IMG/VR virus record: IMGVR_UViG_3300033153_011579
DNA from: a virus
Taxonomy: Duplodnaviria; Heunggongvirae; Uroviricota; Caudoviricetes
Direction: 5' to 3' (one strand)
DNA length: 18,351 bases
Both the position numbers and the translations under genes were made by a program. Positions 1,221 through 13,018 of this stretch are shown here, in pieces (the stretch's first letter is position 1; each line of letters starts with the position of its first letter). The notes below the pieces were generated by a model. That model was not told the DNA's origin and did not search any database. It worked only from the letters and a program-made list of their open reading frames with translations.

Positions 1221-1262
1221 TCAGCAACGCTGGCGAGACCAGCGAACAGAGGAGATAGTCTC

Positions 1263-2211: not shown

Positions 2212-2220
2212 GAGAACGTC

Positions 2221-2712
2221 ATGCAATCGATACTCTGCAGCCGCTGGCTGATGTGGGCCCTGATGGGGCTCGGTGGTGGTGCTGGCTTCCTGATCACGCG
2301 CAAGCGGACCAAGAAGGGCCTCGTGAAGGCCGGTGCGAGCGCCGGCGGTATCGCCGCGGGCTACGTCGCGTGGCTCTTCCTGAGCAAGATGTGCCAGGGC
2401 CAGCAGGAGCAGGCTCCACAGTTCTACGACGAGGAGCCGTGGATGGACGACGAGGCCTACGAGGAGCAAGCTCCGTACGAGCGCCAACCGGGCTCTGGGA
2501 CGGCGACAGGCCAGCGGCCGGGGGTTCCCCCAGGAGCAGCTTCTGGGTCTGATTACAGTACCCCCGACGCTCCTCCGAGGACTCCGGTCAGCTCCGCGAG
2601 GACGCCGACGAGGACGCCGGTCAACCCGGCGCTCGCCGCGAGCGGTGCCGCGGTGATGACCGGCTCGAGGACCATCGCCAACTCGATGTTCAGTGGGGCG
2701 TATGGGAGCTAA
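2221..2712 (+). CDS. Membrane protein with two N-terminal TMs and an acidic/Pro-rich disordered tail (163 aa)
   Basis: AGGAG at 2210-2214. Two TMs separated by RKRTKK, then low-complexity Q/E/P/T/S sequence. Confidence 0.75.
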   Translation: MQSILCSRWLMWALMGLGGGAGFLITRKRTKKGLVKAGASAGGIAAGYVAWLFLSKMCQGQQEQAPQFYDEEPWMDDEAYEEQAPYERQPGSGTATGQRPGVPPGAASGSDYSTPDAPPRTPVSSARTPTRTPVNPALAASGAAVMTGSRTIANSMFSGAYGS

Positions 2713-3766: not shown

Positions 3767-3994
3767 ATGGCACGCAAAGGAAAACGCTGTTACATCAAGC
3801 GCGCGAAGGTCCGGATGTGTTTCTGCAGCGGCAAGCGCCGGAAGCTCTCGAGCTGCGGCGTCAAACCCCGCAAGAAGCTCAGCAAGAAGGGCTACTGCAA
3901 GCCGAAGACCACGCGCAAGCGCGGCAAGTCCTGGATCTGCACCACCCGCGGTGGCGGCACGAAGTTCGTCACCAAGCGCATGCGCCGCCGGTAG
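3767..3994 (+). CDS. Protamine-like basic Cys-rich protein, putative DNA-condensing protein (75 aa)
   Basis: AAGGAG SD. 17 K + 14 R, no D/E, 6 Cys. Flanked by hairpins in both intergenic gaps. Confidence 0.7.
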   Translation: MARKGKRCYIKRAKVRMCFCSGKRRKLSSCGVKPRKKLSKKGYCKPKTTRKRGKSWICTTRGGGTKFVTKRMRRR

Positions 3995-4089: not shown

Positions 4090-4797
4090 ATGGATTTACG
4101 CACGGTCATCAACTGGGCTCCGTACCCCGCGGGGACTCCACGCTCTCACCAGCAGTTCATGGCGGTCAGCCGGTTCGTCGAGCACGCACCGAGCTGGGCC
4201 GAGCTCGTCCTGTGCGTCCTGCCGACCGAGGAGATCCCCGAGGTCGTGGTCGACGGCCAGCGCTGTGATTTCCAAAAGGCGATCCTACCGAGGGACGCCT
4301 TTGGAGACCACGCCGGCCAGCGGCACCTCCCGTACGTCAAGGACGTGATGGACCTCGCTGCCGCCGATTCGGGTGACGACGCCTGGTGCGGCTTTTTGAA
4401 CTCCGACATCATCGTGACTCCCGAGTTCTTCACGAAGATCGCCAAAGCCCCGAGGAGCACCCAGATCATCCTCGTCCACCGGACGGATATTCGAAAATAC
4501 GACGTCGACCCGAAGGACGGCCAGAAGGTGAACCAGAACACGTGCACCGACGGGTTTTTCATCAGACGCGGCCTCTGGCAGAAGGAGCGGGCCCAATACC
4601 CGGACTTCATCCTCGGCGAGCCATGGTGGGACACGGGGACCATCTTCTGGTCGAAGGCCAAGGAGCTCGAGACACTCCGCCTGATCGACAACGAGTGTCT
4701 CCACATCTGCCACAGCAGGTACTGGGCTCGCAAGAGTCTCGGAGCCACCTACAACTCGATGCTCGGCAAGCATCTGTGGAAGTCGATGGCGAAGTGA
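4090..4797 (+). CDS. GT-A-fold glycosyltransferase-like protein, paralog 1 (235 aa)
   Basis: GFLNSDI (DxD-like), DGFF, FILGEPWWD and LHICH..W, matching the motif order of GT-A nucleotide-sugar transferases. Paralog of 9469..10143. Confidence 0.65.
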   Translation: MDLRTVINWAPYPAGTPRSHQQFMAVSRFVEHAPSWAELVLCVLPTEEIPEVVVDGQRCDFQKAILPRDAFGDHAGQRHLPYVKDVMDLAAADSGDDAWCGFLNSDIIVTPEFFTKIAKAPRSTQIILVHRTDIRKYDVDPKDGQKVNQNTCTDGFFIRRGLWQKERAQYPDFILGEPWWDTGTIFWSKAKELETLRLIDNECLHICHSRYWARKSLGATYNSMLGKHLWKSMAK

Positions 4798-5087
4798 TGT
4801 CAGTCAGGAAGATCAGAAAGCCGCGGGTCAAGTACAGGCAGCAGAGCGCTGGGCCGCAGCACGCCACCTGGAAGTGTCCCAGCTGCAAGTCGAACACGGT
4901 GGTCCTCAACTGGGAAAAGCGAGACGAGCACGGCAACCTCCCGGAGGACAAGCCGCCGATCCAGTTCGTCTGCACGAACAGCGCGTGCAAGAAGATCTAC
5001 AAGGAGACCCACGCGGACTATCACTTCGGCCCCGCGGCGGTTGAGGCCGTCCGCCGGATCCGGCTCAAACAGAAAGAGGAGGGCTAG
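4797..5087 (+). CDS. Zinc-ribbon-like protein (96 aa)
   Basis: TGATG overlap. WKCPSC and VCTNSAC Cys pairs. Confidence 0.7.
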   Translation: MSVRKIRKPRVKYRQQSAGPQHATWKCPSCKSNTVVLNWEKRDEHGNLPEDKPPIQFVCTNSACKKIYKETHADYHFGPAAVEAVRRIRLKQKEEG

Positions 5088-5092
5088 CCCTC
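5079..5092 (+). promoter_or_regulatory. Junction palindrome GAGGGCTAGCCCTC (SD in stem, upstream TAG in loop)
   Basis: Perfect 14-bp palindrome. TAG 5085-5087 is the upstream stop and the ATG is at 5094. An identical copy lies at 13971-13984. Confidence 0.7.
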
Positions 5093-5093
5093 G

Positions 5094-5825
5094 ATGTTCA
5101 TCGCGTTCGCCACAGGGTCAGGTCGGTGCGGGACGCAGACGTTCGGAGCGCAGATGCAGCGGCTCGAGCACGTCGTCGGTCTCCACGAGGGAAGGCATCA
5201 GGCGTATCTCGGCTATCGGAATCCACCCAAGGCCCCGCACCTCGTCTGCGGGAGCGACCAGGCGCGTTCCTGGAATGCCCGCGCGCTCCAGATCCGTCGT
5301 GAGCTCTTCATGAAGGGAGAGGCCCAGGTCGGATTCGGAGAGGGAGCGCACTACCTCGCGCTCAACCTCGACCTCGTCGCCGAGGTTTTTTGTGACGCAA
5401 AGATCGTCCACCTCGTCCGCGACCCGTTCGATCAGGTGGCTTCGATGATGCAGCACGCCGGTCCCGAGGTCTACGGCCAGCCCGGAGGTCTCCACCATCG
5501 GAACGAGACCGAGTGGAAGCGCTGGCCCGACTGCTTTCCGATCTACGACGGGGCGACGACGCGCGCCGAGGGTCTGGCGCACTACTGGCAAGACGTCAAC
5601 CAGGCGATCGAGGAGCAGGCGAGCCTGCCGGTACTGCTCGTTCGTACCGAAAATCTCGGGTCACCAACCACCTGGGACGCGATTCTGGATTTCATCGGTC
5701 TGGATGCCACCGTGACGCATCCACAACTCGTGTTCAACGCCCGAAGACCGGCCTACAAGGCGATGCCCATACCGAACGACGTCAAAGACGCCGTCACGAG
5801 GATCTGCACATGGACCCCAAGCTGA
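5094..5825 (+). CDS. PAPS-dependent sulfotransferase (243 aa)
   Basis: N-terminal 5'-PSB loop TGSGRCGT, 3'-PB motif HLVRDPFDQVAS, and VRTENL (a YEDL-like motif). Confidence 0.8.
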   Translation: MFIAFATGSGRCGTQTFGAQMQRLEHVVGLHEGRHQAYLGYRNPPKAPHLVCGSDQARSWNARALQIRRELFMKGEAQVGFGEGAHYLALNLDLVAEVFCDAKIVHLVRDPFDQVASMMQHAGPEVYGQPGGLHHRNETEWKRWPDCFPIYDGATTRAEGLAHYWQDVNQAIEEQASLPVLLVRTENLGSPTTWDAILDFIGLDATVTHPQLVFNARRPAYKAMPIPNDVKDAVTRICTWTPS

Positions 5826-6532
5826 TCTGGATCGCGAGCTTCCCACGGTCGGGCAACACGTTGCTGAGGAGGATCCTCCACAGCGTCACCGGCTGGCCAA
5901 CCTATTCGCTCTACCCCGACCTCAATATCGCCGACCAGCAGCGCGAGGAGATCGGCCACATCGAGGTTCCCAAGATGTGGCAGGACGCCGCACGCGTCCC
6001 GTCTCTAGACCCCGGGCACCCGCGGTTCGTCAAGAACCACGAGTGGCCAGCTCCAGGAGACTCACGGCCTGCCGTCCTGGTCGTCCGCGACGGTCGCGAC
6101 GTCCTGTGCAGCTTCGCGCGCTACCTCAAGACCAAGGAGTCGTCCAAGTACGTCAAGATGAGCCCCGAGGGCGTCCTCGACCGCCTGATCGACGGCAAGG
6201 GACCGCACGGCTCGTGGAGCCAGCACGTCAAGAAGTGGCTGGAGCATCCTCAGAAAACAGTGCTCTACTACCACAACCTGGCCGAGCTCGCGAACAAATA
6301 TCAGAGCGCCACAGTGGGCGTCGTCACGACCCTGCTCGACCTGTGCGGGGTCGCATCGGACACAATCGATGAGCAGGCTAGCCTGCCGGCTTTTGAGGAG
6401 CTGCACGCGGCCGACCCGGATTTTTACCACCGCGGTGGGTCGTACTGGAACGAGGTCATGACTCCCGAGCAGCACGACCTTTTTTGGAAGAAACACGGGT
6501 ACGCGATGGACGCCTTAGGATACAGGAGATAG
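5810..6532 (+). CDS. PAPS-dependent sulfotransferase, Sulfotransfer_1-like (240 aa)
   Basis: IASFPRSGNT (5'-PSB), FVKNH, VVRDGRDVLCS (3'-PB), GSWSQHVKKW and FYHRGGS.W. ATG at 5810. Confidence 0.88.
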   Translation: MDPKLIWIASFPRSGNTLLRRILHSVTGWPTYSLYPDLNIADQQREEIGHIEVPKMWQDAARVPSLDPGHPRFVKNHEWPAPGDSRPAVLVVRDGRDVLCSFARYLKTKESSKYVKMSPEGVLDRLIDGKGPHGSWSQHVKKWLEHPQKTVLYYHNLAELANKYQSATVGVVTTLLDLCGVASDTIDEQASLPAFEELHAADPDFYHRGGSYWNEVMTPEQHDLFWKKHGYAMDALGYRR

Positions 6533-6535
6533 ACG

Positions 6536-6730
6536 ATGATACACGCCAAGCCTGTAAAGCGCATCGAGGTCATGGTCGATACAAAAGGTGGAGTCGCCCG
6601 AAAACAGATTTCGCTGAATCACTTGACCACGCCCGAGCAGCGAGAACCTCTACTGATAGAAGAAATCGCTCAGCGGGAGGCCGAGAAGCTGGTTGAGTGG
6701 GATTATGAAATAGTGGGTGAGCCCCGTTGA
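6536..6730 (+). CDS. Hypothetical protein (64 aa)
   Basis: AGGAG upstream. Fills the gap between the sulfotransferase and the next gene, with a TTGA overlap. Confidence 0.6.
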   Translation: MIHAKPVKRIEVMVDTKGGVARKQISLNHLTTPEQREPLLIEEIAQREAEKLVEWDYEIVGEPR

Positions 6731-7584
6731 CACCGCTCGACCTCACCGAGGCGAACGACCTCCTGTCGACCTGGCTGCTGAGCGGCGAGCCGTTTCTCGC
6801 CGGCCGGTACGGGCTCACCGAGGCCTCCGTCTGCTGGTGGAAGGGGATGCGGGGCAAGGTCTTGGGAAAACCCATCAGGAGCCAGCTCACGTGGGGCGTG
6901 GGCGTCTACCCGACGACGCCCGCCATGATCGACGAGCTCATCTCGCACCAGATGTGGGCGGCGTCCCATGCCGACGGGATCGTCCGCTGGGGGTCTGGGA
7001 AGGTCCACGGCGAGGATCTTTTGCTCGAGCATACGACGAAGGACGACGTGGCGTTCCTCCCGCCCGAGGTGAATTTCGCGTTCCTCCAGCTCGAGCGGCC
7101 GTGGACGCAGCACCTCGCCGGGAAGCGGGTCCTCGTCGTCCACCCGTTCGTGACGACCATCATGGAGCAGTATTGGGAAAAACGAGAAAAGCTGTTCGAC
7201 AACCCGTCGATCCTGCCGGAGCTCGACAACCTGACGGTGATGGACGGTATCCAGTCGATCGGCGGGACGGGACCGCACAACAACTGGGTCGAGTCGCTCG
7301 ACATAATGAGCGATGCGATCCGTATCCTCGTGAGAGACGACGTGTTCGACGTCGCGCTCATCGCCTGCGGAGGTTACGGGTTCCCGCTCGCAGCTCGCTG
7401 CAAGCTGGCCGGCAAGCCGGCGATCCACCTTGGTGGCGCGCTCCAGCTTCTGTTCGGGATCAAGGGTCGGCGGTTCGACAAGAACCCCGTCGTCACGCCG
7501 TTCTATAACGACCACTGGGTGCGCCCGCGAGAATCCGAGCGCCCCAAAGGCTGGGAGAACGTCGAGAACGGCTGCTACTGGTAG
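6727..7584 (+). CDS. GT-D-like (DUF1792-related) polysaccharide-locus protein, putative glycosyltransferase (285 aa)
   Basis: PWTQHLAGKRVLVVHPF, FDVALIACGGYGFPLA, GKPAIHLGGALQLLFGIKG and C-terminal ENGCYW. I recognise this pattern from a conserved family in bacterial glycan loci; the fold assignment is tentative. Confidence 0.6.
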   Translation: MTPLDLTEANDLLSTWLLSGEPFLAGRYGLTEASVCWWKGMRGKVLGKPIRSQLTWGVGVYPTTPAMIDELISHQMWAASHADGIVRWGSGKVHGEDLLLEHTTKDDVAFLPPEVNFAFLQLERPWTQHLAGKRVLVVHPFVTTIMEQYWEKREKLFDNPSILPELDNLTVMDGIQSIGGTGPHNNWVESLDIMSDAIRILVRDDVFDVALIACGGYGFPLAARCKLAGKPAIHLGGALQLLFGIKGRRFDKNPVVTPFYNDHWVRPRESERPKGWENVENGCYW

Positions 7585-7589
7585 CCCAC

Positions 7590-7605
7590 CCCACTAGTGG
7601 GTTTT
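7590..7605 (+). terminator. Short hairpin plus U-tract (weak terminator/attenuator candidate)
   Basis: CCCACTAGTGGG palindrome 5 nt after the stop, followed by TTTTAATG and the next SD. Confidence 0.4.
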
Positions 7606-7620
7606 AATGAGGAGAGCACG

Positions 7621-8331
7621 ATGGTGATCATCAACCCAGAGAGAGACAAGCGGATGGCAGCGAAGGCCGCGGAGCGTGCTGCAGGACAGAAGGGTTTTAA
7701 CTACGACCCGACGATCAAGCCACCGGAGTTCTACGGGGACGCCCACGAGACGGGTATCGTCGGCCTGACGTTCAAGCCGCCGTGGCCCACCGCCATCGGT
7801 TGGGTGTGCCGCACGCGACGCGTGGCCGACCTGATCCGCGCCGACCAACCCGTCTTCGAGCTCGGCTGTGGGTTCGGAATCTTAGCGGCGATGCTCTGGC
7901 ACGAAGGGTTTCACCGCGCGAACTACCTCGGCTGGGATTTTTGTCCTGACGCCATCGCCGTGGCCAAGAAGGGGAACGCCAAGGAGGCCCACCAGAACGC
8001 ATTGTGGGTGACGAGCGATCTCGACGATGATGCAGGTCGAGAGCGGGTCCGGATCTCTGTGGAGGCCCAACCAGACAATCTCGCAGTCGTCTCGTGCGAG
8101 ACGCTCGAGCACCTCGAGCACGACAGGGAGCTCGTCGAGGCGATCCCGTCGGGCACCTTCTGCATCTTCAGCGTCCCGCAGTTCTGGGCCCGGTCTCACC
8201 TGCGGAAATTCCAGACGCCGGGGATCGCCCACGAGCGCTACGGCGAGTTCCTCGAAGCCCGGTACCGGCAGTTCCAATTCTATCCAAAGCCCGAGTCGGG
8301 CTGGATCCTCATCTGGGGCTACAGAAAGTAG
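7621..8331 (+). CDS. Class I SAM-dependent methyltransferase (236 aa)
   Basis: GAGGAG SD at 7609-7614. Motif I VFELGCGFG, motif II LGWDF and VSCETLEHLEHD. Confidence 0.85.
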   Translation: MVIINPERDKRMAAKAAERAAGQKGFNYDPTIKPPEFYGDAHETGIVGLTFKPPWPTAIGWVCRTRRVADLIRADQPVFELGCGFGILAAMLWHEGFHRANYLGWDFCPDAIAVAKKGNAKEAHQNALWVTSDLDDDAGRERVRISVEAQPDNLAVVSCETLEHLEHDRELVEAIPSGTFCIFSVPQFWARSHLRKFQTPGIAHERYGEFLEARYRQFQFYPKPESGWILIWGYRK

Positions 8332-8339
8332 GGGGCAAC

Positions 8340-8660
8340 ATGTCCGAAAGAGTCAAGCTGAGCGAAGAAGAGAGCCTCCTGCCGCAGTGCAAGTCTCGCG
8401 AGGTGGCCAACATCCTCGGTGGCTTCCTCGGTGGCCTCGTTGGCTTCATCGACGTCGCGGCGGTCCGCACGGCAGTCCAGTGGTGGGCGGAGTGCGATGA
8501 GGCCTGGGCCGCGTTCGAGGCGATGAACCCGACGAAGATGCCGTGCGCAGGCTGCAAGTACATCAACGACGTCCCCGACGGTGGGGGGTTCTGCTACATG
8601 TTCAAGGAAGCCCCAGAGACGCTCCCGTGTGGAGCGTGGAAGGCGGACCTTCCTCGATAG
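8340..8660 (+). CDS. Hypothetical protein with a C-terminal four-Cys motif (106 aa)
   Basis: ATG at 8340 after GGGGG. CAGC...GFC...LPC metal-binding-like pattern. Confidence 0.65.
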   Translation: MSERVKLSEEESLLPQCKSREVANILGGFLGGLVGFIDVAAVRTAVQWWAECDEAWAAFEAMNPTKMPCAGCKYINDVPDGGGFCYMFKEAPETLPCGAWKADLPR

Positions 8661-8678
8661 GCCACCAGTGGCCTTTTT
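8659..8678 (+). terminator. Intrinsic terminator candidate
   Basis: AGGCCA-CCAG-TGGCCT followed by a T run (8674-8678), starting at the stop codon. Confidence 0.6.
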
Positions 8679-8703
8679 ATCCTGGGGTGTGATACCCTCG
8701 GGT

Positions 8704-9462
8704 ATGGCCCTCGAGCACCCGATCGTCTTCTACGTGACGAACAATAAAGGCGGGAAGTCCGACGGCGCGACCTTCACGGCCGAGGCGCGGAACTTCCAGC
8801 AGCTCTACAACGTCCACGACTCCGACATGATCGGTCTCGACACCGCCCGGCTGTCGAAGTCCGCACGCCGGCAGGTGGTGGCCACCGTGCTCGAGCAGCG
8901 GTGGGGCTACGGTTACGATTCTGTCGTCTTCTTCGGCCACGGTGGGAAGACCTGGAGCGACCTCGGCTACAACCTCCAGAACGTCGACCAGTTCGCGGTC
9001 GCGATGGCCGATGCCCTCGACCCGGACGCGGTGGTCGTCCTGTACGCCTGCCTGAACGCCGACGGCCCCGGGTTTGACTCTGACGACCCCGACGAGCGGG
9101 TCGCCGGGAGTTTCGCCGAAGTCCTCCACAACGCGATGTGCGACGCCGGTCTCGACCGGTCGCGTGTGCTCGGCCACACCTCGATGGGTCACGCGACGGA
9201 AAATCCCTATCTCATGGTCATCGGGCCGTGCGGACAGGGGGCGAGTTGGTACTCGGCGTCACCAGGCGAGCCCGGCTGGTCCGACTGGGCGCACAAGATG
9301 AAGATGAAGGGCGACTACGACCTGCTCGTCCCGTCGTACCTCGAGGACGTCGATTACAAGAAGGTCGCCGAGCAGGGCGACGAGGGAGCGGGGGCTATCG
9401 CTGTCGCCTTCCTGGCCGTCGCCGCCGGCGCGCTCTACGTCTGGTCGAAACGCCGCCGCTGA
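8704..9462 (+). CDS. Caspase/gingipain-fold (clan CD-like) cysteine protease with a C-terminal TM anchor (252 aa)
   Basis: VVFFGHG (H79) and VVLYAC (C116), each after a hydrophobic strand. C-terminal AIAVAFLAVAAGALYVW-SKRRR. Confidence 0.6.
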   Translation: MALEHPIVFYVTNNKGGKSDGATFTAEARNFQQLYNVHDSDMIGLDTARLSKSARRQVVATVLEQRWGYGYDSVVFFGHGGKTWSDLGYNLQNVDQFAVAMADALDPDAVVVLYACLNADGPGFDSDDPDERVAGSFAEVLHNAMCDAGLDRSRVLGHTSMGHATENPYLMVIGPCGQGASWYSASPGEPGWSDWAHKMKMKGDYDLLVPSYLEDVDYKKVAEQGDEGAGAIAVAFLAVAAGALYVWSKRRR

Positions 9463-9468
9463 TCACCA

Positions 9469-10143
9469 ATGAAGTTGCGGGTCGTCATCAGCTGGGTGCC
9501 CTTTCCGAAGGGGTCAGCGCGCGAGGATCACCAGCTGAAGGTATGGGGTCAACTCGTCGAGCTCGCTCCTCCATGGTGTGAGGTTGTCGTGGCGCTCCTG
9601 GACGGTGAGCCCGACCCTGGATTGAACCTCGAGCCTACTGTGCTCCCACGTCGGGCCGACGTCGCGGGCGATTCGGATCGCCCTCTGCCGTATCTGAGAG
9701 ACATGGTCGACGTCGCACTGAATTCGGACGTCACCTGGGGTGGGTTTCTGAACTCCGACATCGTCGTGACGCCCGAGTTTTTTTCTGTAATTGAGCACCT
9801 CTCGCCGACGACGTCGATGGTTCTCTGCCACCGGACAGACATCCTCCGGCTCGGTGGCGGGCTGCAGAACAGCCGTCGACAGCGAGCTCCCGGGTGCTCC
9901 GACGGCTGCTTCTTCCATCGCGATACCTGGAAGCAACGAAGGGACACCGTTCCTGACTACATCATCGGCGAGGCCGCCTGGGATCGCGGGATGTGGCTCT
10001 GGAGTCGCGTGCACGAAGTCGACGTCCGACACATGAGCGACGACGAGATTCTCCACGTCCAGCTGCGGCCGCTCTGGTATCGGTGGAGCAGGGGAGCGAA
10101 GTACAACCGAGCGTTCAACGTCGAGCTCGCTCAGACGCTGTAG
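9469..10143 (+). CDS. GT-A-fold glycosyltransferase-like protein, paralog 2 (224 aa)
   Basis: Shares LPY..D, GFLNSDI.VTPEFF, HRTDI, C.DG.F, PD.I.GE..WD.G and GA.YN with 4090..4797. Confidence 0.62.
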   Translation: MKLRVVISWVPFPKGSAREDHQLKVWGQLVELAPPWCEVVVALLDGEPDPGLNLEPTVLPRRADVAGDSDRPLPYLRDMVDVALNSDVTWGGFLNSDIVVTPEFFSVIEHLSPTTSMVLCHRTDILRLGGGLQNSRRQRAPGCSDGCFFHRDTWKQRRDTVPDYIIGEAAWDRGMWLWSRVHEVDVRHMSDDEILHVQLRPLWYRWSRGAKYNRAFNVELAQTL

Positions 10144-10148
10144 CCATT

Positions 10149-10167
10149 AAAAAGTGCGTTAGCGCAC
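10149..10167 (-). terminator. Terminator candidate at the convergence of the two operons
   Basis: Minus strand reads GTGCG-CTAA-CGCAC-TTTTT. The TAA stop of the radical SAM gene sits in the loop. Confidence 0.55.
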
Positions 10168-10857
10168 CCAGCCGCAGCGCTGGCAGATTTCTAGCTGGCG
10201 GTATCCAGCCTGTAGCTCCTTGTAGACCTTCATCATGGCCGGATTGGCGAGAATGTCAGGGAAGGCCTGGTTGGGAAGTTTTCCAAAGACGTGACGGCGC
10301 TCGAAGTCGAGGCAGCAGAGGATGACCTCGGCGGTGGAGGCGATCGTCAGCTTACCAAACGGTGCGCTGCAGGGTCGGACGTCGTGGATCACCGGGCGGT
10401 CGTAGACGTTGAGGCGGTTGTCGAGAAACTGGCGGTTGACTTCGTACTTCAGCCCCTTGGGCGCGATGAGTCTCACGAGGCGGCTGTACTCGTCGCCGAA
10501 GTAGGCCGAGACGCGGACGTGCGAGACGCCGTGGAGCACGCGGAGGTCGTCGAGGAGGTCCTGGTTGAGGTTGAATCCGTTCGTCCAGAGCGACCGCGTC
10601 GACTTCGGTACCGTGTCCTTGGCGATGTTCAGGAGCATCGTCAGGCGGGGGTCGATCAGCGGCTCGTTGTAGACGTTGAAGCCGATCCGTCCGGAGTACT
10701 TCGCTTGGCCGAGGTAGTTCATGACGCCCACGATGATGGGCGTCGGGAGGATCCTCGGCGGCTCGTCGAGCTGATGGAGCGGACATCGCTTGTGCTTGTC
10801 TTTAAAAACGCAGATATTCGAAAGCTCGAAGTCGACGGAGTTGACCAGGTCGATCAC
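10159..10857 (-). CDS. Radical SAM/SPASM(twitch)-like protein with a variant Cx5Hx2C motif (232 aa)
   Basis: GTG start overlaps the upstream TGA, with a GGAGGG SD. ELSNICVFKDKHKRCP, YNEPL.DP, WTNG, and C-terminal C...CC...CxxC. Confidence 0.78.
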   Translation of the reverse strand: MIDLVNSVDFELSNICVFKDKHKRCPLHQLDEPPRILPTPIIVGVMNYLGQAKYSGRIGFNVYNEPLIDPRLTMLLNIAKDTVPKSTRSLWTNGFNLNQDLLDDLRVLHGVSHVRVSAYFGDEYSRLVRLIAPKGLKYEVNRQFLDNRLNVYDRPVIHDVRPCSAPFGKLTIASTAEVILCCLDFERRHVFGKLPNQAFPDILANPAMMKVYKELQAGYRQLEICQRCGWVR

Positions 10858-11648
10858 GGCATCCCTCCCCAGCCGTTGGCGTTCCTGATGAACTCCCCGC
10901 GGTTCAGCTTCTTGACTCCGATCTTGTGGTTCTTGATGATGAATTGCCGCATGCCCGGCTGGTGCTGTCCGACATCGTGCCACTGGTGAAGGAGCGCGTA
11001 CCGCTGTGGTAGCCAGTGCCACTTCTTACCCGACATGATCGCTCGCTTCGCGAGGTCGTGGTCCTCGGCTCCCCACCACTCCATCTCCTCGTCTAGCCCG
11101 CGGATCTTGAACCACCACGGTCTCAAGGCCGCCTGGCAGCATCCCCACGACATGAACATCGGGCCTTTCCCCGCGCGCCGGCCGTCCCACTCGATCGCCT
11201 CCGACTGCGCGCGGAGCTCGACGTACATCTCAAGGTTGATGTCGTCCGGCATCGGGACCGGCTTCGACAGAGACCGGTTCGGACACATGACGTACCGGAT
11301 CGGCTGCGCCTCGAGCGCGAGCTCGACCTGCTCGATCATCTCGTTGTGCAAAATACAGTCGACGTCCAGCGTGACGATTGCCTCGACGTCCTCGGCAGTC
11401 CGGCGGATCGCCCAGTTGATGGCGAGCGGCTTCCTCCACGGATCGTCAGGCTTCCCGACCGCCCATAGCTGGCCGCCACCGAGGTGCTCGAACAGCATGT
11501 CGGCAACAGAGCGCCGGGCCTCGTCCGTGTCGCCATGGCAGCTGACGATCACCTGGTCGGGCTTCCGCGTCTGGTACGCCAGCGACTGCAGGTGCCGCGA
11601 GAGCTGCTCGAGCCGGTCTCGGTGCGGTGTGATCGTTACGAGGTGCAC
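10854..11648 (-). CDS. GT2-family glycosyltransferase with a GT7C-like C-terminus (264 aa)
   Basis: GTG start with an AAGGAG SD. KPLAIN, LDVD (DxD), GLDEEMEWWGAEDHDL and LLHQWH. Confidence 0.88.
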   Translation of the reverse strand: MHLVTITPHRDRLEQLSRHLQSLAYQTRKPDQVIVSCHGDTDEARRSVADMLFEHLGGGQLWAVGKPDDPWRKPLAINWAIRRTAEDVEAIVTLDVDCILHNEMIEQVELALEAQPIRYVMCPNRSLSKPVPMPDDINLEMYVELRAQSEAIEWDGRRAGKGPMFMSWGCCQAALRPWWFKIRGLDEEMEWWGAEDHDLAKRAIMSGKKWHWLPQRYALLHQWHDVGQHQPGMRQFIIKNHKIGVKKLNRGEFIRNANGWGGMP

Positions 11649-11656
11649 TAGTGCAC
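11643..11656 (-). promoter_or_regulatory. Junction palindrome GTGCACTAGTGCAC
   Basis: Perfect 14-bp palindrome. The upstream TAG (11650-11648) is in the loop and the downstream GTG start is in the 3' arm. Confidence 0.65.
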
Positions 11657-12064
11657 TCCTTCCCAGTGATGGCGGAGTTGGCCGATCAGGCGGGCGGCGG
11701 CGTCGATCGGCGACTTGGCGATCCCTTCGATCTGGGAACACGCCCCTGAAGGCTCGAACCTTCGGACCATCCACTCTTCGATCAGCTTGTCGGTGTTCCA
11801 GACGCCGGACCGCAGGAGGGCGTAGGCTTCCTTGCAGGCGAGCTCGACGAGGGCGCGGACGTTGTGCTCCTGAGCTCCGCTGACGGTGATGTCGATGTAG
11901 TCGAGACGGTGGCCGCACCAGGCGAGCTTCATGTAAAAATCGTAACCAGAGATCGTGAACTTCTGGGTGACCCCCGGAAGACCGCGGGCACGCATCGCGT
12001 CGGCGGCGATCTTACGATGGTCAGGGGACAGGATGTGTCCCACGATGCCTTGGCAAAAAGCCAT
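11648..12064 (-). CDS. Stand-alone TSCPD-domain protein resembling the class II RNR C-terminal/NrdJb domain (138 aa)
   Basis: TQKFTISG..FY, RFEPSG and KSPIDAAARLI match the pattern of NrdJ C-terminal TSCPD domains as I recall it. Confidence 0.6.
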   Translation of the reverse strand: MAFCQGIVGHILSPDHRKIAADAMRARGLPGVTQKFTISGYDFYMKLAWCGHRLDYIDITVSGAQEHNVRALVELACKEAYALLRSGVWNTDKLIEEWMVRRFEPSGACSQIEGIAKSPIDAAARLIGQLRHHWEGVH

Positions 12065-12279
12065 CAGCCGAGGTAGATCGGGTGCTGCCAGTTAGAGCGG
12101 ACGAGGACCATCTCGTACGGCTCCTCGTGGCCCATCAGGCATTTGTAACAGAGCTTCTTCATCGTCCCGTCTCTCCTGGCGCGGTCGACCGCCTCGAAGT
12201 AGCAGCCGTCGACATCGCACAGGTCGCCCTCTTCCACCGGCAGAGGCTTCCAGCAAAGCCTACCCTTCGCCTTGGCCAT
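12064..12279 (-). CDS. Small Cys-motif (zinc-finger-like) protein (71 aa)
   Basis: CDVDGC...LCYKC. TGATG overlap with the downstream gene. Confidence 0.65.
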   Translation of the reverse strand: MAKAKGRLCWKPLPVEEGDLCDVDGCYFEAVDRARRDGTMKKLCYKCLMGHEEPYEMVLVRSNWQHPIYLG

Positions 12280-13018
12280 AGATGGACTCCTTCAGCATGA
12301 ATATTTGCGCCATCGTCTCGCCCCACTCCTCTTCGGTCCACATCCCCGGGTTGCCGATCTCGTACTTCCACTTGAACGGCTTGCGCTTCGCCCGGTGGTT
12401 GGCGATGTTTTTCTCGTGACTCAAGGCGAACCCGAGACCCTGCTGCTTCTGGAACACTTGCCTGTCCTGCGGGACGTTCTGCCAGACCCAGCCCTGCCAC
12501 TGCGTGTCCTGCCCGGTGACGTTCGGCCTGCCGTTCGACAGCTTTTCCATGAACCTGATCTTTTCGACCGCCGCCTTCCGGTACAAACCGAGAGACCACA
12601 TGAAGGTCGGGACGTAGCAAATCTTGATCGGGTCCATCGCGAGGTTGAAAAACGGGAACTTGAGGTGCGTGGCCAGGACGTCCTTGTCGCCCAGGTGCGA
12701 GGTCGCCCACTGCAGCCAGCACGGAGCCTTCCCGTCGTCGTCGTCTAGCCAGCCGATTATCTCTCCGGTGGCCGTGTCCATCCCGACGTTGCTCTTCTCG
12801 GCGATCGTGCAGCCCGCGGGCGCATGCTTCACCCAGACGAGCTCGCGGAACGGGATGAGCGGCGTCAGCGCGTCGAACGAGCTGTCGGTCGGCGTCGAGT
12901 CGACTACCACGAGCTCTTTCGTGTACCCCGGCGGCGTCTTCAGCGAGTTGTACGTGTGCGCGAGCCACGGCATGAACTCAGGCCGTCCCTCGGTGCAGCA
13001 GATGATCGAAATCTTCAA
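12260..13018 (-). CDS. GT2-family glycosyltransferase (252 aa)
   Basis: ISIICCT.GR, ELVVVD, I.EK.N.G...ATGEIIGWLDDDD. TTG start with a GGAGGG SD. Confidence 0.88.
   Translation of the reverse strand: MKISIICCTEGRPEFMPWLAHTYNSLKTPPGYTKELVVVDSTPTDSSFDALTPLIPFRELVWVKHAPAGCTIAEKSNVGMDTATGEIIGWLDDDDGKAPCWLQWATSHLGDKDVLATHLKFPFFNLAMDPIKICYVPTFMWSLGLYRKAAVEKIRFMEKLSNGRPNVTGQDTQWQGWVWQNVPQDRQVFQKQQGLGFALSHEKNIANHRAKRKPFKWKYEIGNPGMWTEEEWGETMAQIFMLKESIYGQGEG

What the first reader, a model, noticed from the sequence alone, without database searches (positions are those of the whole stretch)
4090..13018. Virus-encoded sulfated/methylated glycan-building system split over two convergent operons
Seen: about 9 kb encoding two paralogous GT-A-like proteins, two GT2s, a GT-D-like protein, two different sulfotransferases, a SAM methyltransferase and a radical SAM/SPASM enzyme, directly after a run of membrane proteins. 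Known: GT2/GT-A/GT-D enzymes transfer nucleotide sugars, PSB/PB-motif enzymes transfer sulfate from PAPS, and radical SAM/SPASM enzymes such as BtrN oxidise sugars. Inference: a complete pathway making a multi-sugar, sulfated and methylated glycan. Candidate acceptors are virion membrane proteins or lipids, the host surface (receptor masking), or viral DNA. No nucleotide-sugar or PAPS synthesis genes are in the window, so donors would come from the host or elsewhere in the genome. I do not know of a characterised bacterial virus with this combination.
Basis: partly seen in the sequence, partly recalled or inferred. Interest (0 to 1): 0.8.

Follow-up and report, generated by a model that had tools for sequence, protein, structure and literature searches.

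The report
Sulfating glycan-decoration gene cluster in a virus
An uncultured bacterial virus carries a tight 9-kb block of five sugar-adding enzymes, two sulfate-adding enzymes, a methylase and an oxidising enzyme, which most likely coats its own particle with a sulfated, methylated sugar chain; no bacterial virus has yet been shown to make such a coat.

Summary
Window 4090-13018 encodes:
- two paralogous GT-A-fold proteins of a family with no Pfam model;
- two GT2s;
- a GT-D-fold protein;
- two PAPS-type sulfotransferases;
- a class I methyltransferase;
- a BtrN-like SPASM protein.

These genes sit in two tightly packed, convergent gene strings, together with six small or unknown genes. One correction: the BtrN homologue lacks the canonical CX3CX2C motif, so radical-SAM activity is unproven.

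All nine enzymes lack membrane segments. No lipid-carrier, flippase, polymerase, nucleotide-sugar or PAPS gene is present in the window.

Viral origin is supported only indirectly. The flanks match PHROG families. No match was found in plasmid records, and no relative of the g1 subfamily in reference genomes. An 81-kb relative contig appears to share the g1...g5 arrangement. Earlier notes from this scan describe the same genome as a roughly 82-kb jelly-roll, membrane-rich virus.

New context found here:
- In 12 of 18 IMG/VR tailed-phage contigs, homologues of sulfotransferase g4 lie directly after the major capsid gene.
- The best viral structural match of the GT-D protein is a Moumouvirus australiensis protein. 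That virus has a fibril-glycosylation cluster that also holds a sulfotransferase.

Best reading: the module decorates the virion in the cytoplasm. This is a new variant of a known kind, virus-encoded glycosylation clusters.

The parts
361..3709 (+). Run of small basic membrane proteins (ORFs at 361, 1263, 1499, 1894, 2221 and 2693). They probably form the tail end of the virion block and are candidate acceptors or neighbours of the module.
   Evidence: Kyte-Doolittle scan: TM segments in the ORFs at 361, 1263, 1894 and 2693, with pI 8.6-11.6. There are no Pfam hits. Earlier scan notes place the virion block just before the window start on a circular genome; I did not test this.
3767..3994 (+). 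75-aa, very basic (pI 11.8), Cys-rich protein between the membrane-protein run and the module.
   Evidence: No family match.
4090..4797 (+). g1: GT-A-fold glycosyltransferase-like protein belonging to a family with no Pfam model.
   Evidence: - No Pfam, NCBIfam or PHROG hit.
- AlphaFold model (pLDDT 82.5) matches SpsA, chondroitin synthase and WrtF.
- The family has 569 representatives.
- In long proteins the domain is fused next to GT2 or Glyco_transf_7C domains.
- Invariant N104-x-D106 and H205.
4797..5087 (+). g2: 96-aa basic protein with four Cys, zinc-ribbon-like. Function unknown.
   Evidence: Only sub-threshold zinc-finger hits.
5094..5825 (+). g3: sulfotransferase (Sulfotransfer_3-like).
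   Evidence: - Pfam PF13469: 27.2 bits against a cut-off of 27.
- ESM Atlas: all ten best family-bearing hits share a sulfotransferase family or clan, and structural TM to sulfotransferase clusters is about 0.7.
- GSGRCGT and RDPFDQVAS motifs are seen in the translation.
5810..6532 (+). g4: PAPS-dependent sulfotransferase (Sulfotransfer_1).
   Evidence: - PF00685: 43.9 bits against a cut-off of 22.
- PDB match to SULT4A1, E 1.9e-6.
- Invariant PRSG, K-x-H and RDGR...S motifs in a 20-sequence alignment.
- 138 homologues found.
6536..6730 (+). g4b: 64-aa ORF filling the g4-g5 gap. Function unknown.
   Evidence: Its coding status is not tested.
6727..7584 (+). g5: GT-D-fold glycosyltransferase-like protein.
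   Evidence: - 2129 homologues found; 23 of the 27 aligned members match PF22882.
- AlphaFold model, pLDDT 94.9.
- DUF1792 GT-D structure 5v4a: Z 13.6, 214 residues aligned, rmsd 4.1.
- Best BFVD match is a 325-aa Moumouvirus australiensis protein, TM 0.77, E 2.4e-17.
7621..8331 (+). g6: class I SAM-dependent methyltransferase.
   Evidence: Pfam Methyltransf_12 scores 30.3 against a cut-off of 30, and Methyltransf_25 scores 27.6 against 27. An ELGCGFG motif is present in the translation.
8340..8660 (+). g7: 106-aa acidic protein with six Cys and one predicted TM segment. Function unknown.
   Evidence: A terminator-like hairpin follows it at 8659-8674.
8704..9462 (+). g8: 252-aa acidic alpha/beta protein with a C-terminal TM anchor. 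It may be a clan-CD-like cysteine protease; this is unresolved.
   Evidence: - Sub-threshold Peptidase_C25 hit.
- ESM Atlas gives leads only, score 0.84.
- TM segment at residues 227-249.
9469..10143 (+). g9: paralogue of g1 (GT-A fold family).
   Evidence: BLASTP 36% identity, E 2e-54. It keeps N-x-D and H205 but lacks the nearly invariant H208.
10159..10857 (-). g10: BtrN-like SPASM/twitch-domain protein with a non-canonical N-terminal cluster motif (C-x5-H-x2-C).
   Evidence: SPASM PF13186 scores 35.7 against a cut-off of 21.5, with no PF04055 hit. BtrN (4m7s) matches at E 1.5e-11 over residues 44-229.
10854..11648 (-). g11: GT2-type glycosyltransferase with a beta-4-GalT-like C-terminal motif.
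   Evidence: Pfam Glyco_tranf_2_3 scores 31.7 against a cut-off of 27, and Glyco_transf_7C scores 25.9 against 23. A DVD motif is present in the translation.
11648..12064 (-). g12: 138-aa protein of unknown function.
   Evidence: No significant family match.
12064..12279 (-). g12b: 71-aa Cys-rich ORF filling the g13-g12 gap.
   Evidence: Its coding status is not tested.
12260..13018 (-). g13: GT2 glycosyltransferase.
   Evidence: PF00535 scores 31.9 against a cut-off of 23.3. A DDDD motif is present in the translation. A strong SD (AAGGAGG) precedes the start.
10143..10170 (.). Convergent junction between the two strings. A 5-bp hairpin (GTGCG-TTAG-CGCAC) carries g10's stop codon in its loop. 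On the minus strand it is followed by a run of five T, so it looks like a terminator for the leftward string.
   Evidence: Sequence read directly. The consensus scan did not call it.

Best explanation
**What it is.** Window 4090-13018 is a virus-carried glycosylation and glycan-tailoring module that works in the cytoplasm.

**How it most likely works.**
- Five soluble glycosyltransferases (GT-A-like g1 and g9, GT2 g11 and g13, GT-D-like g5) extend an oligosaccharide step by step. They would draw on the host's nucleotide sugars.
- Two PAPS sulfotransferases (g3, g4) add sulfate, using host PAPS.
- The SAM methyltransferase (g6) adds methyl groups.
- The BtrN-like protein (g10) may oxidise a sugar hydroxyl.
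- The most likely acceptors are components of the virus particle made from the adjacent late genes. These could be virion proteins, as in O-glycosylation by GT-D and GT-A enzymes, or lipids of the particle's membrane.
- The particle would then leave the cell with a negatively charged, methylated glycan coat. Such a coat could shield it, tune adsorption, or both.

**Shown here:** the enzyme families and folds, the intact sulfotransferase motifs, the solubility of the enzymes, the tight gene packing, and the genomic context of viral homologues.

**Inferred:** that the enzymes act on one common product, the acceptor, the order of steps, and the biological benefit.

**Sub-confidences:**

| Claim | Confidence |
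|---|---|
| It is a glycan-building and tailoring module | about 0.85 |
| The element is a virus | about 0.8 |
| The acceptor is a virion component | about 0.5 |

The overall confidence given is for the whole statement, acceptor included.
For: **Enzyme identities.**

**Solubility and missing export machinery.**
- None of the nine enzymes has a TM segment or signal-like hydrophobic start.
- No polytopic membrane protein lies in 4090-13018.
- A lipid-carrier export pathway is therefore not encoded here.

**Operon structure.** Genes overlap or abut.

**Position.** The plus-strand string directly continues, on the same strand, a run of small basic membrane proteins.

**Context of viral g4 homologues.**
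- In 12 of 18 distinct IMG/VR records, about 9 lineages, the sulfotransferase begins 608-1180 bp after the HK97 major capsid match, on the same strand.
- Their neighbours are portal, prohead protease, head-tail connector, GT2 and methyltransferase genes.
- One locus reads TerL - portal - protease - capsid - sulfotransferase - methyltransferase.
- In a FastTree tree g4 falls in the virus-rich half.

**GT-D link.**
- GT-D (DUF1792) was solved as a new glycosyltransferase fold from streptococci (entry titles). From my own knowledge, not checked here, its streptococcal members work in cytoplasmic O-glycosylation of a serine-rich adhesin.
- The best viral structural match of g5 is a 325-aa Moumouvirus australiensis protein.
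- That virus's fibril-glycosylation cluster contains a 325-aa GT-D-like glycosyltransferase (Ma463) two genes from a sulfotransferase, and also a SAT/APS kinase (PMC10117803).

**g1 family.** Its domain is fused to other GT-A domains in long proteins. In IMG/VR locus L053 a g1-family gene sits directly upstream of a g4-type sulfotransferase.

**Viral setting.**
- Flanking genes match PHROG families: phrog_13834 at 2e-29, phrog_22479 at 2e-16 and sigma factor phrog_351 at 1e-35.
- No match in plasmid records, and no relative of the g1 subfamily in GTDB reference genomes.
- An 81,271-bp relative contig carries homologues of g1 and g5 six locus tags apart.
Against: - No acceptor has been identified, and no virion protein was tested.
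- I could not see the capsid genes of this genome. The jelly-roll and membrane-virus description comes from earlier, unverified notes.
- The capsid-adjacent context was found in tailed phages, not in this virus type. It concerns g4 homologues at only 23-33% identity.
- Soluble GT2/GT-A enzymes also act on undecaprenyl-linked intermediates at the inner face of the membrane, so lack of TM segments does not exclude host-glycan remodelling.
- The second gene string (g10-g13) follows small genes of unknown function and may be expressed at a different time.
- g10 lacks the canonical radical-SAM motif.
- g3 and g6 pass the Pfam cut-offs only marginally.
- The g1 subfamily was not found in IMG/VR.
- No g4 homologue from the 81-kb relative appeared among the 120 listed hits.
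Confidence: 0.45

Rival explanations
1. Host-surface remodelling. The soluble transferases, sulfotransferases and methylase modify a host lipid-linked glycan (LPS, capsule, EPS or S-layer glycan precursor) at the cytoplasmic face. The host's own flippase and export machinery then displays it. The effect would be to mask the receptor against superinfection, or to help release.
For: - GT2/GT-A enzymes of LPS and EPS pathways are commonly soluble or peripheral, which is established knowledge of those pathways.
- The weak NCBIfam matches of g11 and g13 are to EPS, teichuronic-acid and dolichyl-phosphate-linked transferases.
- GT-D-like genes in large phage contigs lie among GDP-mannose dehydratase, epimerase and DegT genes. 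That resembles O-antigen-type islands.
- An earlier scan note reports a tyrosine recombinase next to the small-gene array just beyond the window end. If real, it would allow a temperate lifestyle (not tested).
Against: - The window has no initiating transferase, flippase, polymerase, acyltransferase or Gtr-type membrane protein.
- The module sits beside virion genes rather than beside lysogeny genes.
- Viral homologues of g4 are embedded in head-morphogenesis modules.
Confidence: 0.2
2. Small-molecule biosynthesis. The block is a cargo biosynthetic gene cluster. It would make a glycosylated, sulfated, methylated metabolite, for example an aminocyclitol-like compound or a modified peptide, rather than a macromolecular coat.
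For: - The only solved relative of g10 is BtrN, an enzyme of butirosin (aminoglycoside) biosynthesis.
- The weaker PDB matches of g4 include Teg12, Teg14 and StaL, sulfotransferases that act on glycopeptide antibiotics.
- SPASM proteins often mature peptides, which is established knowledge.
- Several small Cys-rich ORFs (g2, g7, g12b) could be precursor peptides.
Against: - There is no scaffold-forming enzyme: no cyclase, NRPS/PKS, aminotransferase or sugar-nucleotide gene.
- Five glycosyltransferases is many for a small molecule.
- No exporter or resistance gene is present.
- g10's SAM-cluster motif is degenerate.
Confidence: 0.08
3. DNA hypermodification. The transferases decorate modified bases of the viral genome to evade restriction, as T-even phages do by glucosylating hydroxymethylcytosine.
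For: Phage DNA glycosylation is the oldest known role of viral glycosyltransferases (PMC9614988). Radical-SAM-type enzymes and methylases occur in some base-hypermodification pathways; this is my own knowledge, not checked here.
Against: - The window has no hydroxymethylase, nucleotide kinase or DNA-binding transferase type.
- The folds found are GT-A and GT-D, and the best structural matches are enzymes acting on glycans, polysaccharides and polypeptides, not on DNA.
- I know of no sulfated DNA base.
- Viral homologues of g4 lie in head modules, not in replication or nucleotide modules.
Confidence: 0.04
4. Not a virus. The window belongs to a cellular genomic island or another mobile element, for example a large plasmid of a Planctomycetota-like bacterium. 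The module would then be an unusual but cellular glycan locus.
For: - The nearest relative contig is deposited as part of a Planctomycetota MAG.
- The window is absent from IMG/VR.
- None of the module's genes matches PHROGs, and none of the four tested (g3, g4, g5, g10) matches GenBank phages.
- No capsid gene lies inside the window.
Against: - Flank genes match phage-only PHROG families.
- There are many tiny ORFan genes and no housekeeping gene in 18 kb.
- The relative contig (81 kb) is nearly the same size as this one (82 kb), as expected for complete viral genomes binned with their host.
- No relative of the g1 subfamily was found in GTDB reference genomes, and no match in plasmids.
- Earlier notes report jelly-roll capsid genes and a phage-type replication initiator on the same contig (not tested here).
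Confidence: 0.15

Closest known systems
Megavirinae fibril-glycosylation gene clusters (Moumouvirus australiensis ma457-ma468, Cotonvirus japonicus; PMC10117803)
   Same: - Both are virus-encoded clusters combining several glycosyltransferases.
- Both include a GT-D-like glycosyltransferase related to 5V4A/4PHR, together with a sulfotransferase.
- Cysteine-protease-like genes are interleaved in both.
- In Tupanvirus the cluster also holds methyltransferases.
- Sulfation is predicted there but not validated.
- g5's best viral structural match is a 325-aa Moumouvirus australiensis protein, the same length as Ma463. I did not verify the accession mapping.
   Different: - Those are viruses of amoebae with genomes of about a megabase.
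- They also encode the nucleotide-sugar pathways and a SAT/APS kinase for PAPS.
- This element uses bacterial signals (SD sites, a sigma-70 factor) and is about 82 kb.
- It encodes no donor-synthesis gene in the window.
- It has two sulfotransferases plus a BtrN-like protein.
Mycobacteriophage virion glycosylation (Freeman et al. 2023, cited in PMC12582341; cluster F1 phage Maravista, PMC11256854)
   Same: - Bacterial viruses encode soluble glycosyltransferases that are read as glycosylating virion proteins.
- PMC12582341 speaks of extensive glycosylation of virion proteins.
- PMC11256854 infers capsid glycosylation from two phage glycosyltransferase genes.
   Different: - Those are tailed phages with two to a few glycosyltransferases.
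- None of the papers my literature searches returned reports sulfation there.
- Here there are five glycosyltransferases, two sulfotransferases, a methylase and a BtrN-like protein, in an apparently non-tailed virus.
Chlorovirus PBCV-1 capsid glycan machinery (A064R, A111/114R; PMC7826918, PMC9614988)
   Same: The virus encodes its own glycosyltransferases for the glycans of its major capsid protein, including a multidomain protein with three transferase functions (PMC7826918 abstract). From my own knowledge, the glycans carry methylated sugars and are built outside the ER/Golgi route.
   Different: It is a virus of a eukaryotic alga. The enzymes are multidomain fusion proteins rather than separate genes. 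The words 'sulfated' and 'sulfotransferase' do not occur in the 2022 review.
Capsid-adjacent sulfotransferases of uncultured tailed phages
   Same: - They belong to the same Sulfotransfer_1 subfamily as g4 (profile E 1e-31 to 1e-60).
- They are often accompanied by GT2 and methyltransferase genes.
- They are placed inside the virion module.
   Different: - They have one sulfotransferase and few or no glycosyltransferases.
- The capsid is HK97-type.
- They share only 23-33% identity with g4.
- They are uncharacterised. Published phage papers call the role of phage sulfotransferases unclear (PMC10580990).
BtrN, the radical SAM 2-deoxy-scyllo-inosamine dehydrogenase of butirosin biosynthesis (PDB 4M7S/4M7T)
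   Same: g10 aligns over residues 44-229, including the C-terminal auxiliary-cluster cysteines (E 1.5e-11).
   Different: - g10 has C-x5-H-x2-C where BtrN-type enzymes have CX3CX2C.
- It gives no Radical_SAM Pfam hit.
- Its setting is a glycan module rather than an aminoglycoside pathway.

Membership tests
GT-A fold glycosyltransferases (g1, g9) | Single Rossmann-like GT-A fold | tested here: met
   The g1 AlphaFold model (pLDDT 82.5) matches SpsA 1qg8, K4CP, WrtF and ppGalNAc-Ts with Foldseek probability 1.00, E 1e-8 to 1e-5 and TM 0.53-0.62. g9 is inferred from its 36% identity to g1.
GT-A fold glycosyltransferases (g1, g9) | DXD-type metal- and nucleotide-sugar-binding motif | tested here: inconclusive
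   The family has an invariant N104-x-D106 (NSD) after a beta-strand, plus an invariant H205. This is a variant of DXD, and its function is not shown.
GT-A fold glycosyltransferases (g1, g9) | Membership of a curated sequence family (Pfam or NCBIfam) | tested here: not met
   No Pfam, NCBIfam or PHROG hit, even at E 1 or below. The family, with 569 representatives, is uncurated.
GT2 (g11, g13) | Pfam GT2-clan model over the gathering score | tested here: met
   g13 scores 31.9 on PF00535 against a cut-off of 23.3. g11 scores 31.7 on PF13641 against 27 and 25.9 on PF02709 against 23.
GT2 (g11, g13) | DXD motif | tested here: met
   g11 has LDVDC and g13 has LDDDDG, each at the expected position about 90-100 residues in (translations).
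GT-D (DUF1792-type) glycosyltransferases (g5) | GT-D fold | tested here: met
   VIA-align gives Z 13.6, 13.3 and 13.2 to 5v4a, 4pfx and 4phr (212-214 residues aligned, rmsd 3.8-4.1). The next matches are TagA/TarA at Z about 10, and unrelated chains score 4.6 or less.
GT-D (DUF1792-type) glycosyltransferases (g5) | Pfam PF22882 (GT-D-like) over the gathering score | tested here: not met
   g5 itself scores 15.5 bits against a cut-off of 27. However, 23 of the 27 aligned sequences (g5 plus 26 homologues) match at E 1e-3 or better.
GT-D (DUF1792-type) glycosyltransferases (g5) | Metal-binding DXE motif of DUF1792 | not tested
   The residue-level structural alignment was not inspected. No DXE is among the invariant columns of alignment A4.
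PAPS-dependent sulfotransferases (g4) | Pfam Sulfotransfer_1 over the cut-off; 5'-PSB loop, 3'-PB motif and catalytic His | tested here: met
   - PF00685 scores 43.9 against a cut-off of 22.
- P12-R13-S14-G15, K75-x-H77 and R93-D94-G95-R96...S101 are invariant in alignment A7.
- The alignment to SULT4A1 covers these motifs.
PAPS-dependent sulfotransferases (g3) | Family model over the cut-off; PAPS-binding motifs | tested here: met
   - PF13469 scores 27.2 against a cut-off of 27, which is marginal.
- All ten best family-bearing ESM Atlas hits share a sulfotransferase family or clan, and structural TM to sulfotransferase clusters is 0.67-0.77.
- GSGRCGT and VRDPFDQVAS are seen in the translation.
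- There is no PDB sequence hit.
Radical SAM superfamily, SPASM/twitch subgroup (g10) | CX3CX2C motif binding the SAM-cleaving [4Fe-4S] cluster | tested here: not met
   The N-terminus reads ...NICVFKDKHKRCP..., that is C-x5-H-x2-C with only two Cys. There is no PF04055 hit.
Radical SAM superfamily, SPASM/twitch subgroup (g10) | C-terminal auxiliary-cluster (SPASM/twitch) domain and homology to a characterised member | tested here: met
   PF13186 scores 35.7 against a cut-off of 21.5. BtrN 4m7s matches at E 1.5e-11 over residues 44-229, with the aligned Cys retained.
Class I SAM methyltransferases (g6) | Pfam model over the cut-off; motif I (E/D-x-G-x-G-x-G) | tested here: met
   PF08242 scores 30.3 against a cut-off of 30, PF13649 scores 27.6 against 27 and PF08241 scores 22.4 against 21.2. 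ELGCGFG is present in the translation. The substrate class is not determinable.
Lipid-carrier (Wzx/Wzy or ABC) polysaccharide loci | Initiating phosphoglycosyl transferase, flippase, polymerase or ABC exporter in the locus | tested here: not met
   No polytopic membrane protein lies in 4090-13018, and there are no such Pfam or NCBIfam hits. Only the window was testable.
Phage Gtr-type O-antigen modification modules | GtrA flippase, GtrB bactoprenol glucosyltransferase and a polytopic GtrC | tested here: not met
   No matching families and no polytopic membrane proteins.
Virus-encoded virion glycosylation clusters (giant viruses, mycobacteriophages) | Glycosyltransferase cluster on a viral genome, next to or co-expressed with virion genes | tested here: inconclusive
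   The cluster abuts a run of virion-like membrane proteins, and the flanks match PHROGs.
Virus-encoded virion glycosylation clusters (giant viruses, mycobacteriophages) | Glycan demonstrated on virion proteins | not testable with these tools
   Needs particles or heterologous expression.

The most novel reading that the evidence does not exclude
Self-encoded sulfation of virus particles may be a widespread, unrecognised virion modification in bacterial viruses. On this reading, this roughly 82-kb, apparently non-tailed, membrane-containing virus builds a complete sulfated and methylated glycan coat with nine of its own enzymes. At least nine lineages of tailed phages would carry a reduced version: a g4-type sulfotransferase, often with a methylase and a GT2, inserted directly after the major capsid gene. 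The pairing of a GT-D-like transferase with a sulfotransferase, seen both here and in Moumouvirus and Cotonvirus, would then be a module shared between viruses of bacteria and giant viruses of eukaryotes.
Probability: 0.3. Interest if true: 0.8.

Novelty: new variant of a known kind. Interest (0 to 1): 0.6.

Why it matters
**State of knowledge**
- Virus-made glycans have been worked out for giant viruses and, more recently, for mycobacteriophages.
- My literature searches found no demonstrated virus-made sulfated glycan.
- Published phage papers call the role of phage sulfotransferase genes unclear.

**What this window adds**
- It offers the richest such gene set I could find in a bacterial virus.
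- The context analysis gives a concrete, testable idea: phage sulfotransferases work on the capsid or virion.

**Why it would matter if true**
- The particle surface would carry a polyanionic coat.
- That coat would bear on adsorption, on stickiness to sulfated polysaccharide-rich matrices, on evasion of host or grazer recognition, and on phage pharmacology.
- It would also link the glyco-toolkits of bacterial viruses and giant viruses.

**Further by-products**
- The uncurated GT-A family (g1/g9), with 569 representatives, deserves a family model.
- The His-for-Cys BtrN homologue is worth testing.

Tried and rejected
**Getting the rest of the genome**
- No whole genome is held for this window.
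- An exact 38-mer from the window is not in IMG/VR.
- No sequencing run was listed for the module, and no RNA holder was listed.

**Fetching relatives: all scans found nothing**
- g1, P0005, P0128, the 338-aa membrane protein and alignment A3 in viral contigs.
- P0005 and P0128 in metagenome contigs.
- P0005 and alignment A5 in genome contigs.
- As a result, the synteny of the 81-kb relative could only be read from two locus tags.

**Similarity searches with no match**
- Megablast of the whole window against phages and against plasmids.
- tblastn of g3, g4, g5, g10 and the phrog_13834-like gene against 50,697 phage records.

**Family and structure searches with no useful result**
- PHROGs for all ten larger module genes.
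- PADLOC: nothing relevant, so I rejected a defence-system reading.
- PDB sequence searches for g3, g5, g11 and the g5 profile gave nothing usable.

**Co-occurrence**
- My own g4-type sulfotransferase profile gave no hit in the 46 IMG/VR loci that hold GT-D-like genes.
- The g1-family profile gave one hit there.
- The exact combination seen in the window is therefore not a recurrent cassette.

**Unresolved or dropped**
- The virus type of IMG/VR contig L005 stayed unresolved.
- g8 as a protease: only sub-threshold leads.
- An encapsulin reading of the 'HK97 capsid plus sulfotransferase' loci was rejected, because they also encode terminase, portal and prohead protease.
- The first maximum-likelihood tree run did not finish, so a FastTree tree was used instead.

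Full report
**1. Checking the observation**

The window has 62% G+C, so raw ORF lists are noisy. I called genes from third-position GC phase, Shine-Dalgarno motifs and start scans.

- The plus strand carries ten genes from 4090 to 10143: g1, g2, g3, g4, g4b, g5, g6, g7, g8 and g9.
- The minus strand carries five genes from 13018 down to 10159: g13, g12b, g12, g11 and g10.
- Neighbouring genes overlap by 1-20 nt or lie 3-8 nt apart. Two gaps, of 36 and 43 nt, are the exceptions.
- The two strings stop 15 nt apart. A small hairpin there carries g10's stop codon in its loop.

**2. What each enzyme is**

| Gene | Assignment | Main evidence |
|---|---|---|
| g1, g9 | GT-A fold; family has no Pfam model | 36% identical, E 2e-54. 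No hit in Pfam, NCBIfam or PHROGs. |
| g5 | GT-D fold | Z 13.6 to DUF1792 structure 5v4a. |
| g11, g13 | GT2 | Pfam over the cut-offs. DVD and DDDD motifs. |
| g4 | Sulfotransfer_1 | 43.9 bits against a cut-off of 22. |
| g3 | Sulfotransfer_3-like | 27.2 bits against a cut-off of 27. ESM Atlas support. |
| g6 | Class I SAM methyltransferase | Pfam at the cut-offs. |
| g10 | BtrN-like SPASM protein | BtrN E 1.5e-11. No CX3CX2C motif. |

*g1 and g9.*
- A four-sequence alignment gave an AlphaFold model of g1 with mean pLDDT 82.5.
- The best PDB matches of that model are all GT-A glycosyltransferases: chondroitin synthases, SpsA, AvpGT, WrtF, heparosan synthase and polypeptide GalNAc-transferases (E 1e-8 to 1e-5, TM 0.53-0.62).
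- A profile search of 1.84 billion representatives found 569 relatives.
- In long relatives, the g1-like domain lies beside separate GT2, Glyco_transf_7C or Gly_transf_sug domains.
- The family keeps an invariant N-x-D after a beta-strand and a C-terminal L-H-x-x-H. g9 lacks the second His.

*g5.*
- g5 has only sub-threshold GT-D-like hits of its own.
- It belongs to a family in which 2129 homologues were found. Of the 27 aligned members, 23 match PF22882.
- Its model (pLDDT 94.9) aligns to the three DUF1792 GT-D structures at Z 13.2-13.6. TagA/TarA come next at Z about 10, and everything else scores 4.6 or less.

*g4 and g3.*
- In a 20-sequence alignment, g4 keeps the invariant PRSG loop, the K-x-H catalytic histidine and the RDGR...S motif.
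- g4 also aligns to SULT4A1 across these motifs.
- g3 is weaker on Pfam alone. All ten of its best family-bearing ESM Atlas hits share a sulfotransferase family or clan.
- The Atlas's own model of g3 superposes on sulfotransferase clusters at TM about 0.7.

*g10.*
- It has a SPASM domain and is a clear homologue of BtrN over residues 44-229.
- It gives no Radical_SAM hit.
- Its N-terminus reads C-x5-H-x2-C rather than CX3CX2C.
- It should therefore be called BtrN-like, not an established radical SAM enzyme.

*Remaining genes.*
- g2, g4b, g7, g12 and g12b have no assignable function. g14, just outside the block, also has none.
- Several of these are small, Cys-rich proteins.
- g8 has a C-terminal membrane anchor and only sub-threshold protease-like leads.

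**3. What is absent**

- None of the nine enzymes has a predicted membrane segment.
- Between 4090 and 13018 there is no polytopic membrane protein.
- The window has no match to initiating phosphoglycosyl transferases, flippases, polymerases or ABC exporters, to Gtr proteins, or to nucleotide-sugar or PAPS synthesis enzymes.
- No defence-system model matches.

**4. Is it viral?**

I could not inspect the rest of the contig. The evidence available is indirect.

*Within the window.*
- The flanks hold many tiny ORFan genes.
- There is a sigma-70-type factor matching phrog_351 (E 1e-35).
- Two genes match phage-only families of unknown function: phrog_13834 at 2e-29 and phrog_22479 at 2e-16.
- A run of small, basic membrane proteins lies directly upstream of g1.
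- There is no housekeeping gene.

*Outside the window.*
- The window has no nucleotide match in phage or plasmid collections.
- The g1 subfamily was not found in GTDB reference genomes.

*The closest relative.*
- The closest homologues of g5 (49% identity) and g1 (41%) lie six locus tags apart. They are on one 81,271-bp contig deposited in a Planctomycetota MAG.
- That contig is almost the same size as the 82,351-bp contig of this window.
- This fits two complete genomes of one virus group, binned with a host, and it suggests a Planctomycetota host.

*Earlier notes of this scan.*
- They describe the same contig as a roughly 82-kb circular virus. It is said to have jelly-roll capsid genes, about twenty membrane-anchored proteins and no terminase.
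- By the offsets given in those notes, the virion block would end just before this window on a circular map.
- I treat this as a lead. I did not verify it.

**5. Context of relatives, and the acceptor**

*GT-D-like family.* Members of the GT-D-like family occur in 46 IMG/VR contigs.
- Some are T4-like jumbo phages with Gp23 and terminase matches.
- Some are giant viruses with the NCLDV capsid, or are GVMAG records.
- I scanned 150 neighbouring ORFs for Pfam families:

| Pfam family among neighbours | Members matching |
|---|---|
| FkbM methyltransferase | 11 |
| GT2 | 7 |
| GT47 | 5 |
| GDP-mannose dehydratase | 4 |
| DegT aminotransferase | 3 |
| Sulfotransfer_2 | 3 |

- One 132-kb contig, L005, reads: sulfotransferase - GT-D-like - unknown - GT - GT47 - sulfotransferase - FkbM methylase.
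- Glyco-islands of the same concept therefore exist in uncultured viruses.

*g4-type sulfotransferases.* A profile of g4 relatives found 19 IMG/VR contigs, 18 of them distinct.
- Pfam tallies among 117 neighbouring ORFs:

| Pfam family among neighbours | Members matching |
|---|---|
| Phage_capsid | 8 |
| Phage_portal | 7 |
| Prohead protease S78 | 6 |
| GT2 | 6 |
| Methyltransferases | 6 |
| Head-tail connector | 3 |

- In 12 of the 18 records, the sulfotransferase match starts 608-1180 bp after the end of the HK97 capsid match, on the same strand.
- These 12 records represent about nine lineages in the tree.
- One locus reads TerL - portal - protease - capsid - sulfotransferase - methylase - unknown - methylase.
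- In another, the sulfotransferase lies between the capsid gene and the head-tail connector gene.
- These loci are true phage head modules, not encapsulin operons, because terminase, portal and protease are present.
- In a FastTree tree, g4 sits in the virus-rich half, with SH-like support of 93. It is not resolved as sister to the capsid-adjacent clade.
- In locus L053, a g1-family gene directly precedes a g4-type sulfotransferase.

*Link to giant viruses.*
- The best viral structural match of g5 is a 325-aa Moumouvirus australiensis protein (TM 0.77, E 2.4e-17).
- The published glycosylation cluster of that virus contains Ma463, a 325-aa glycosyltransferase related to 5V4A/4PHR. It lies two genes from the sulfotransferase Ma461, with papain-like genes between them and a SAT/APS kinase nearby (PMC10117803).
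- I did not verify that the BFVD entry is Ma463.

**6. Most likely mechanism**

- The soluble transferases build an oligosaccharide in the cytoplasm from host nucleotide sugars.
- g3 and g4 sulfate it from host PAPS.
- g6 methylates it.
- g10 may oxidise a hydroxyl, if it is active.

Three lines of evidence point to particle components as the acceptor, either virion proteins or the particle's lipids:
- the block sits on the same strand, directly after the virion-like membrane proteins;
- viral g4 homologues are placed in head modules;
- the pairing of GT-D-like transferase and sulfotransferase recurs in a giant-virus fibril cluster.

This step is inferred. I give it about 0.5.

The rivals are:
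- remodelling of a host lipid-linked glycan that the host machinery then exports (0.2);
- small-molecule biosynthesis (0.08);
- DNA modification (0.04).

A separate question, not exclusive with these, is whether the element is a virus at all. I give 'not a virus' 0.15.

**7. Comparison with what is known, and novelty**

*What is known.*
- Virus-encoded glycosylation clusters are established for chloroviruses and mimivirus relatives (PMC9614988, PMC7826918, PMC10117803). Virion glycosylation is also reported for mycobacteriophages (cited in PMC12582341 and PMC11256854).
- Sulfation has only been predicted, in Moumouvirus and Cotonvirus.
- The 2022 review of giant-virus glycans does not contain the words 'sulfated' or 'sulfotransferase'.
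- A phage genomics paper states that the function of phage sulfotransferases is unclear (PMC10580990).
- None of g3, g4, g5 or g10 has a tblastn match in 50,697 GenBank phage records.

*Classification.* I class this as a new variant of a known kind. It is the most elaborate glycan-tailoring set seen so far in a bacterial virus, in an apparently non-tailed lineage. It has two sulfotransferases, an uncurated GT-A family and an aberrant BtrN homologue.

*By-product.* The finding that may matter more is that sulfotransferases sit directly after the major capsid gene in several tailed-phage lineages. That observation comes from loci outside this window.

**8. Limits**

- No acceptor, sugar or linkage can be named.
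- Operon status and timing of expression are inferred from gene packing only.
- The viral nature of the whole contig and the host assignment rest on indirect evidence.
- The tree is a quick FastTree with long branches.
- Neighbour tallies used stop-to-stop ORFs chosen by length, and some of the IMG/VR records are near-duplicates.

Noticed in passing
IMG/VR loci L048, L049, L050, L051, L054, L055, L057, L058, L059, L061, L062, L063: In tailed-phage contigs, a Sulfotransfer_1 gene of the g4 subfamily lies 608-1180 bp downstream of the HK97 major capsid gene on the same strand. It is often followed by methyltransferase or GT2 genes, and it sits before the head-tail connector. This suggests capsid sulfation, or sulfated capsid glycans, as an undescribed phage trait.
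   Followed up: partly
L005:9072-14165 (IMGVR_UViG_3300007609_000005, 132 kb): A row of genes reads Sulfotransfer_2 - GT-D-like - unknown - Nucleotid_trans GT - GT47 exostosin-like - Sulfotransfer_2 - FkbM methyltransferase, next to a ClpB-like ATPase. This is the same concept as the window. The virus type is unresolved: only a weak terminase hit, and no HK97, Gp23 or NCLDV capsid hit.
   Followed up: partly
window 10783-10812 (g10 N-terminus): The BtrN homologue has C-x5-H-x2-C in place of CX3CX2C, while the C-terminal auxiliary-cluster cysteines are kept. From my own knowledge, this spacing is that of the HmdB-type CX5CX2C variant, with His in place of the middle Cys. Whether homologues share the motif was not checked.
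   Followed up: partly
window 4797-5087, 8340-8660, 12064-12279, 13022-13285: Four small Cys-rich (zinc-ribbon-like) proteins are interleaved with or abut the enzymes. None has a family match, and their role in the module is unknown.
   Followed up: no
window 8704-9462 (g8): This acidic alpha/beta protein has a C-terminal membrane anchor and weak cysteine-protease-like leads, and it sits inside the glyco string. The Moumouvirus and Cotonvirus glyco-clusters also have cysteine-protease-like (papain-like) genes interleaved (PMC10117803). The parallel is unexplained.
   Followed up: partly
window 9469-10143 (g9): Paralogue g9 has lost the nearly invariant second histidine of the family's L-H-x-x-H motif (H208 in g1 numbering). 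It may therefore differ in metal binding or activity from g1.
   Followed up: no
window 10143-10170: At the convergent junction there is a 5-bp hairpin with g10's stop codon in the loop. On the minus strand it is followed by a run of five T, so it is a likely terminator for the leftward string. It fits the 'stop-in-loop' junction grammar noted by another reader.
   Followed up: no
relative contig of 81,271 bp (proteins P0005 and P0125; NCBI MHC4643889.1 and MHC4643883.1): The closest relatives of g5 and g1 are deposited as genes 00205 and 00175 of a Planctomycetota MAG, on a contig almost the same size as this one. It is probably a related virus genome binned with its host, which gives a host hint.
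   Followed up: partly
L018:4910-7873 and L053:8883-10004: g1-family domains do occur in IMG/VR. One is inside a 988-aa multidomain glycosyltransferase near a GT-D-like gene and a Sulfotransfer_2 gene (L018). The other lies directly upstream of a g4-type sulfotransferase (L053).
   Followed up: partly
window 13976-14218 and 14690-15292: Two genes of the leftward string match phage-only PHROG families of unknown function: phrog_22479 at 1.8e-16 and phrog_13834 at 2.2e-29. The second also has a sub-threshold hit to the putative metallopeptidase family DUF6782.
   Followed up: no
literature (bioRxiv 10.1101/2021.03.18.436031): Family 3 encapsulin operons, which have HK97-fold shells inside biosynthetic clusters, commonly contain sulfotransferases. 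This is a second, unrelated setting in which an HK97 shell gene and sulfotransferase genes travel together.
   Followed up: no
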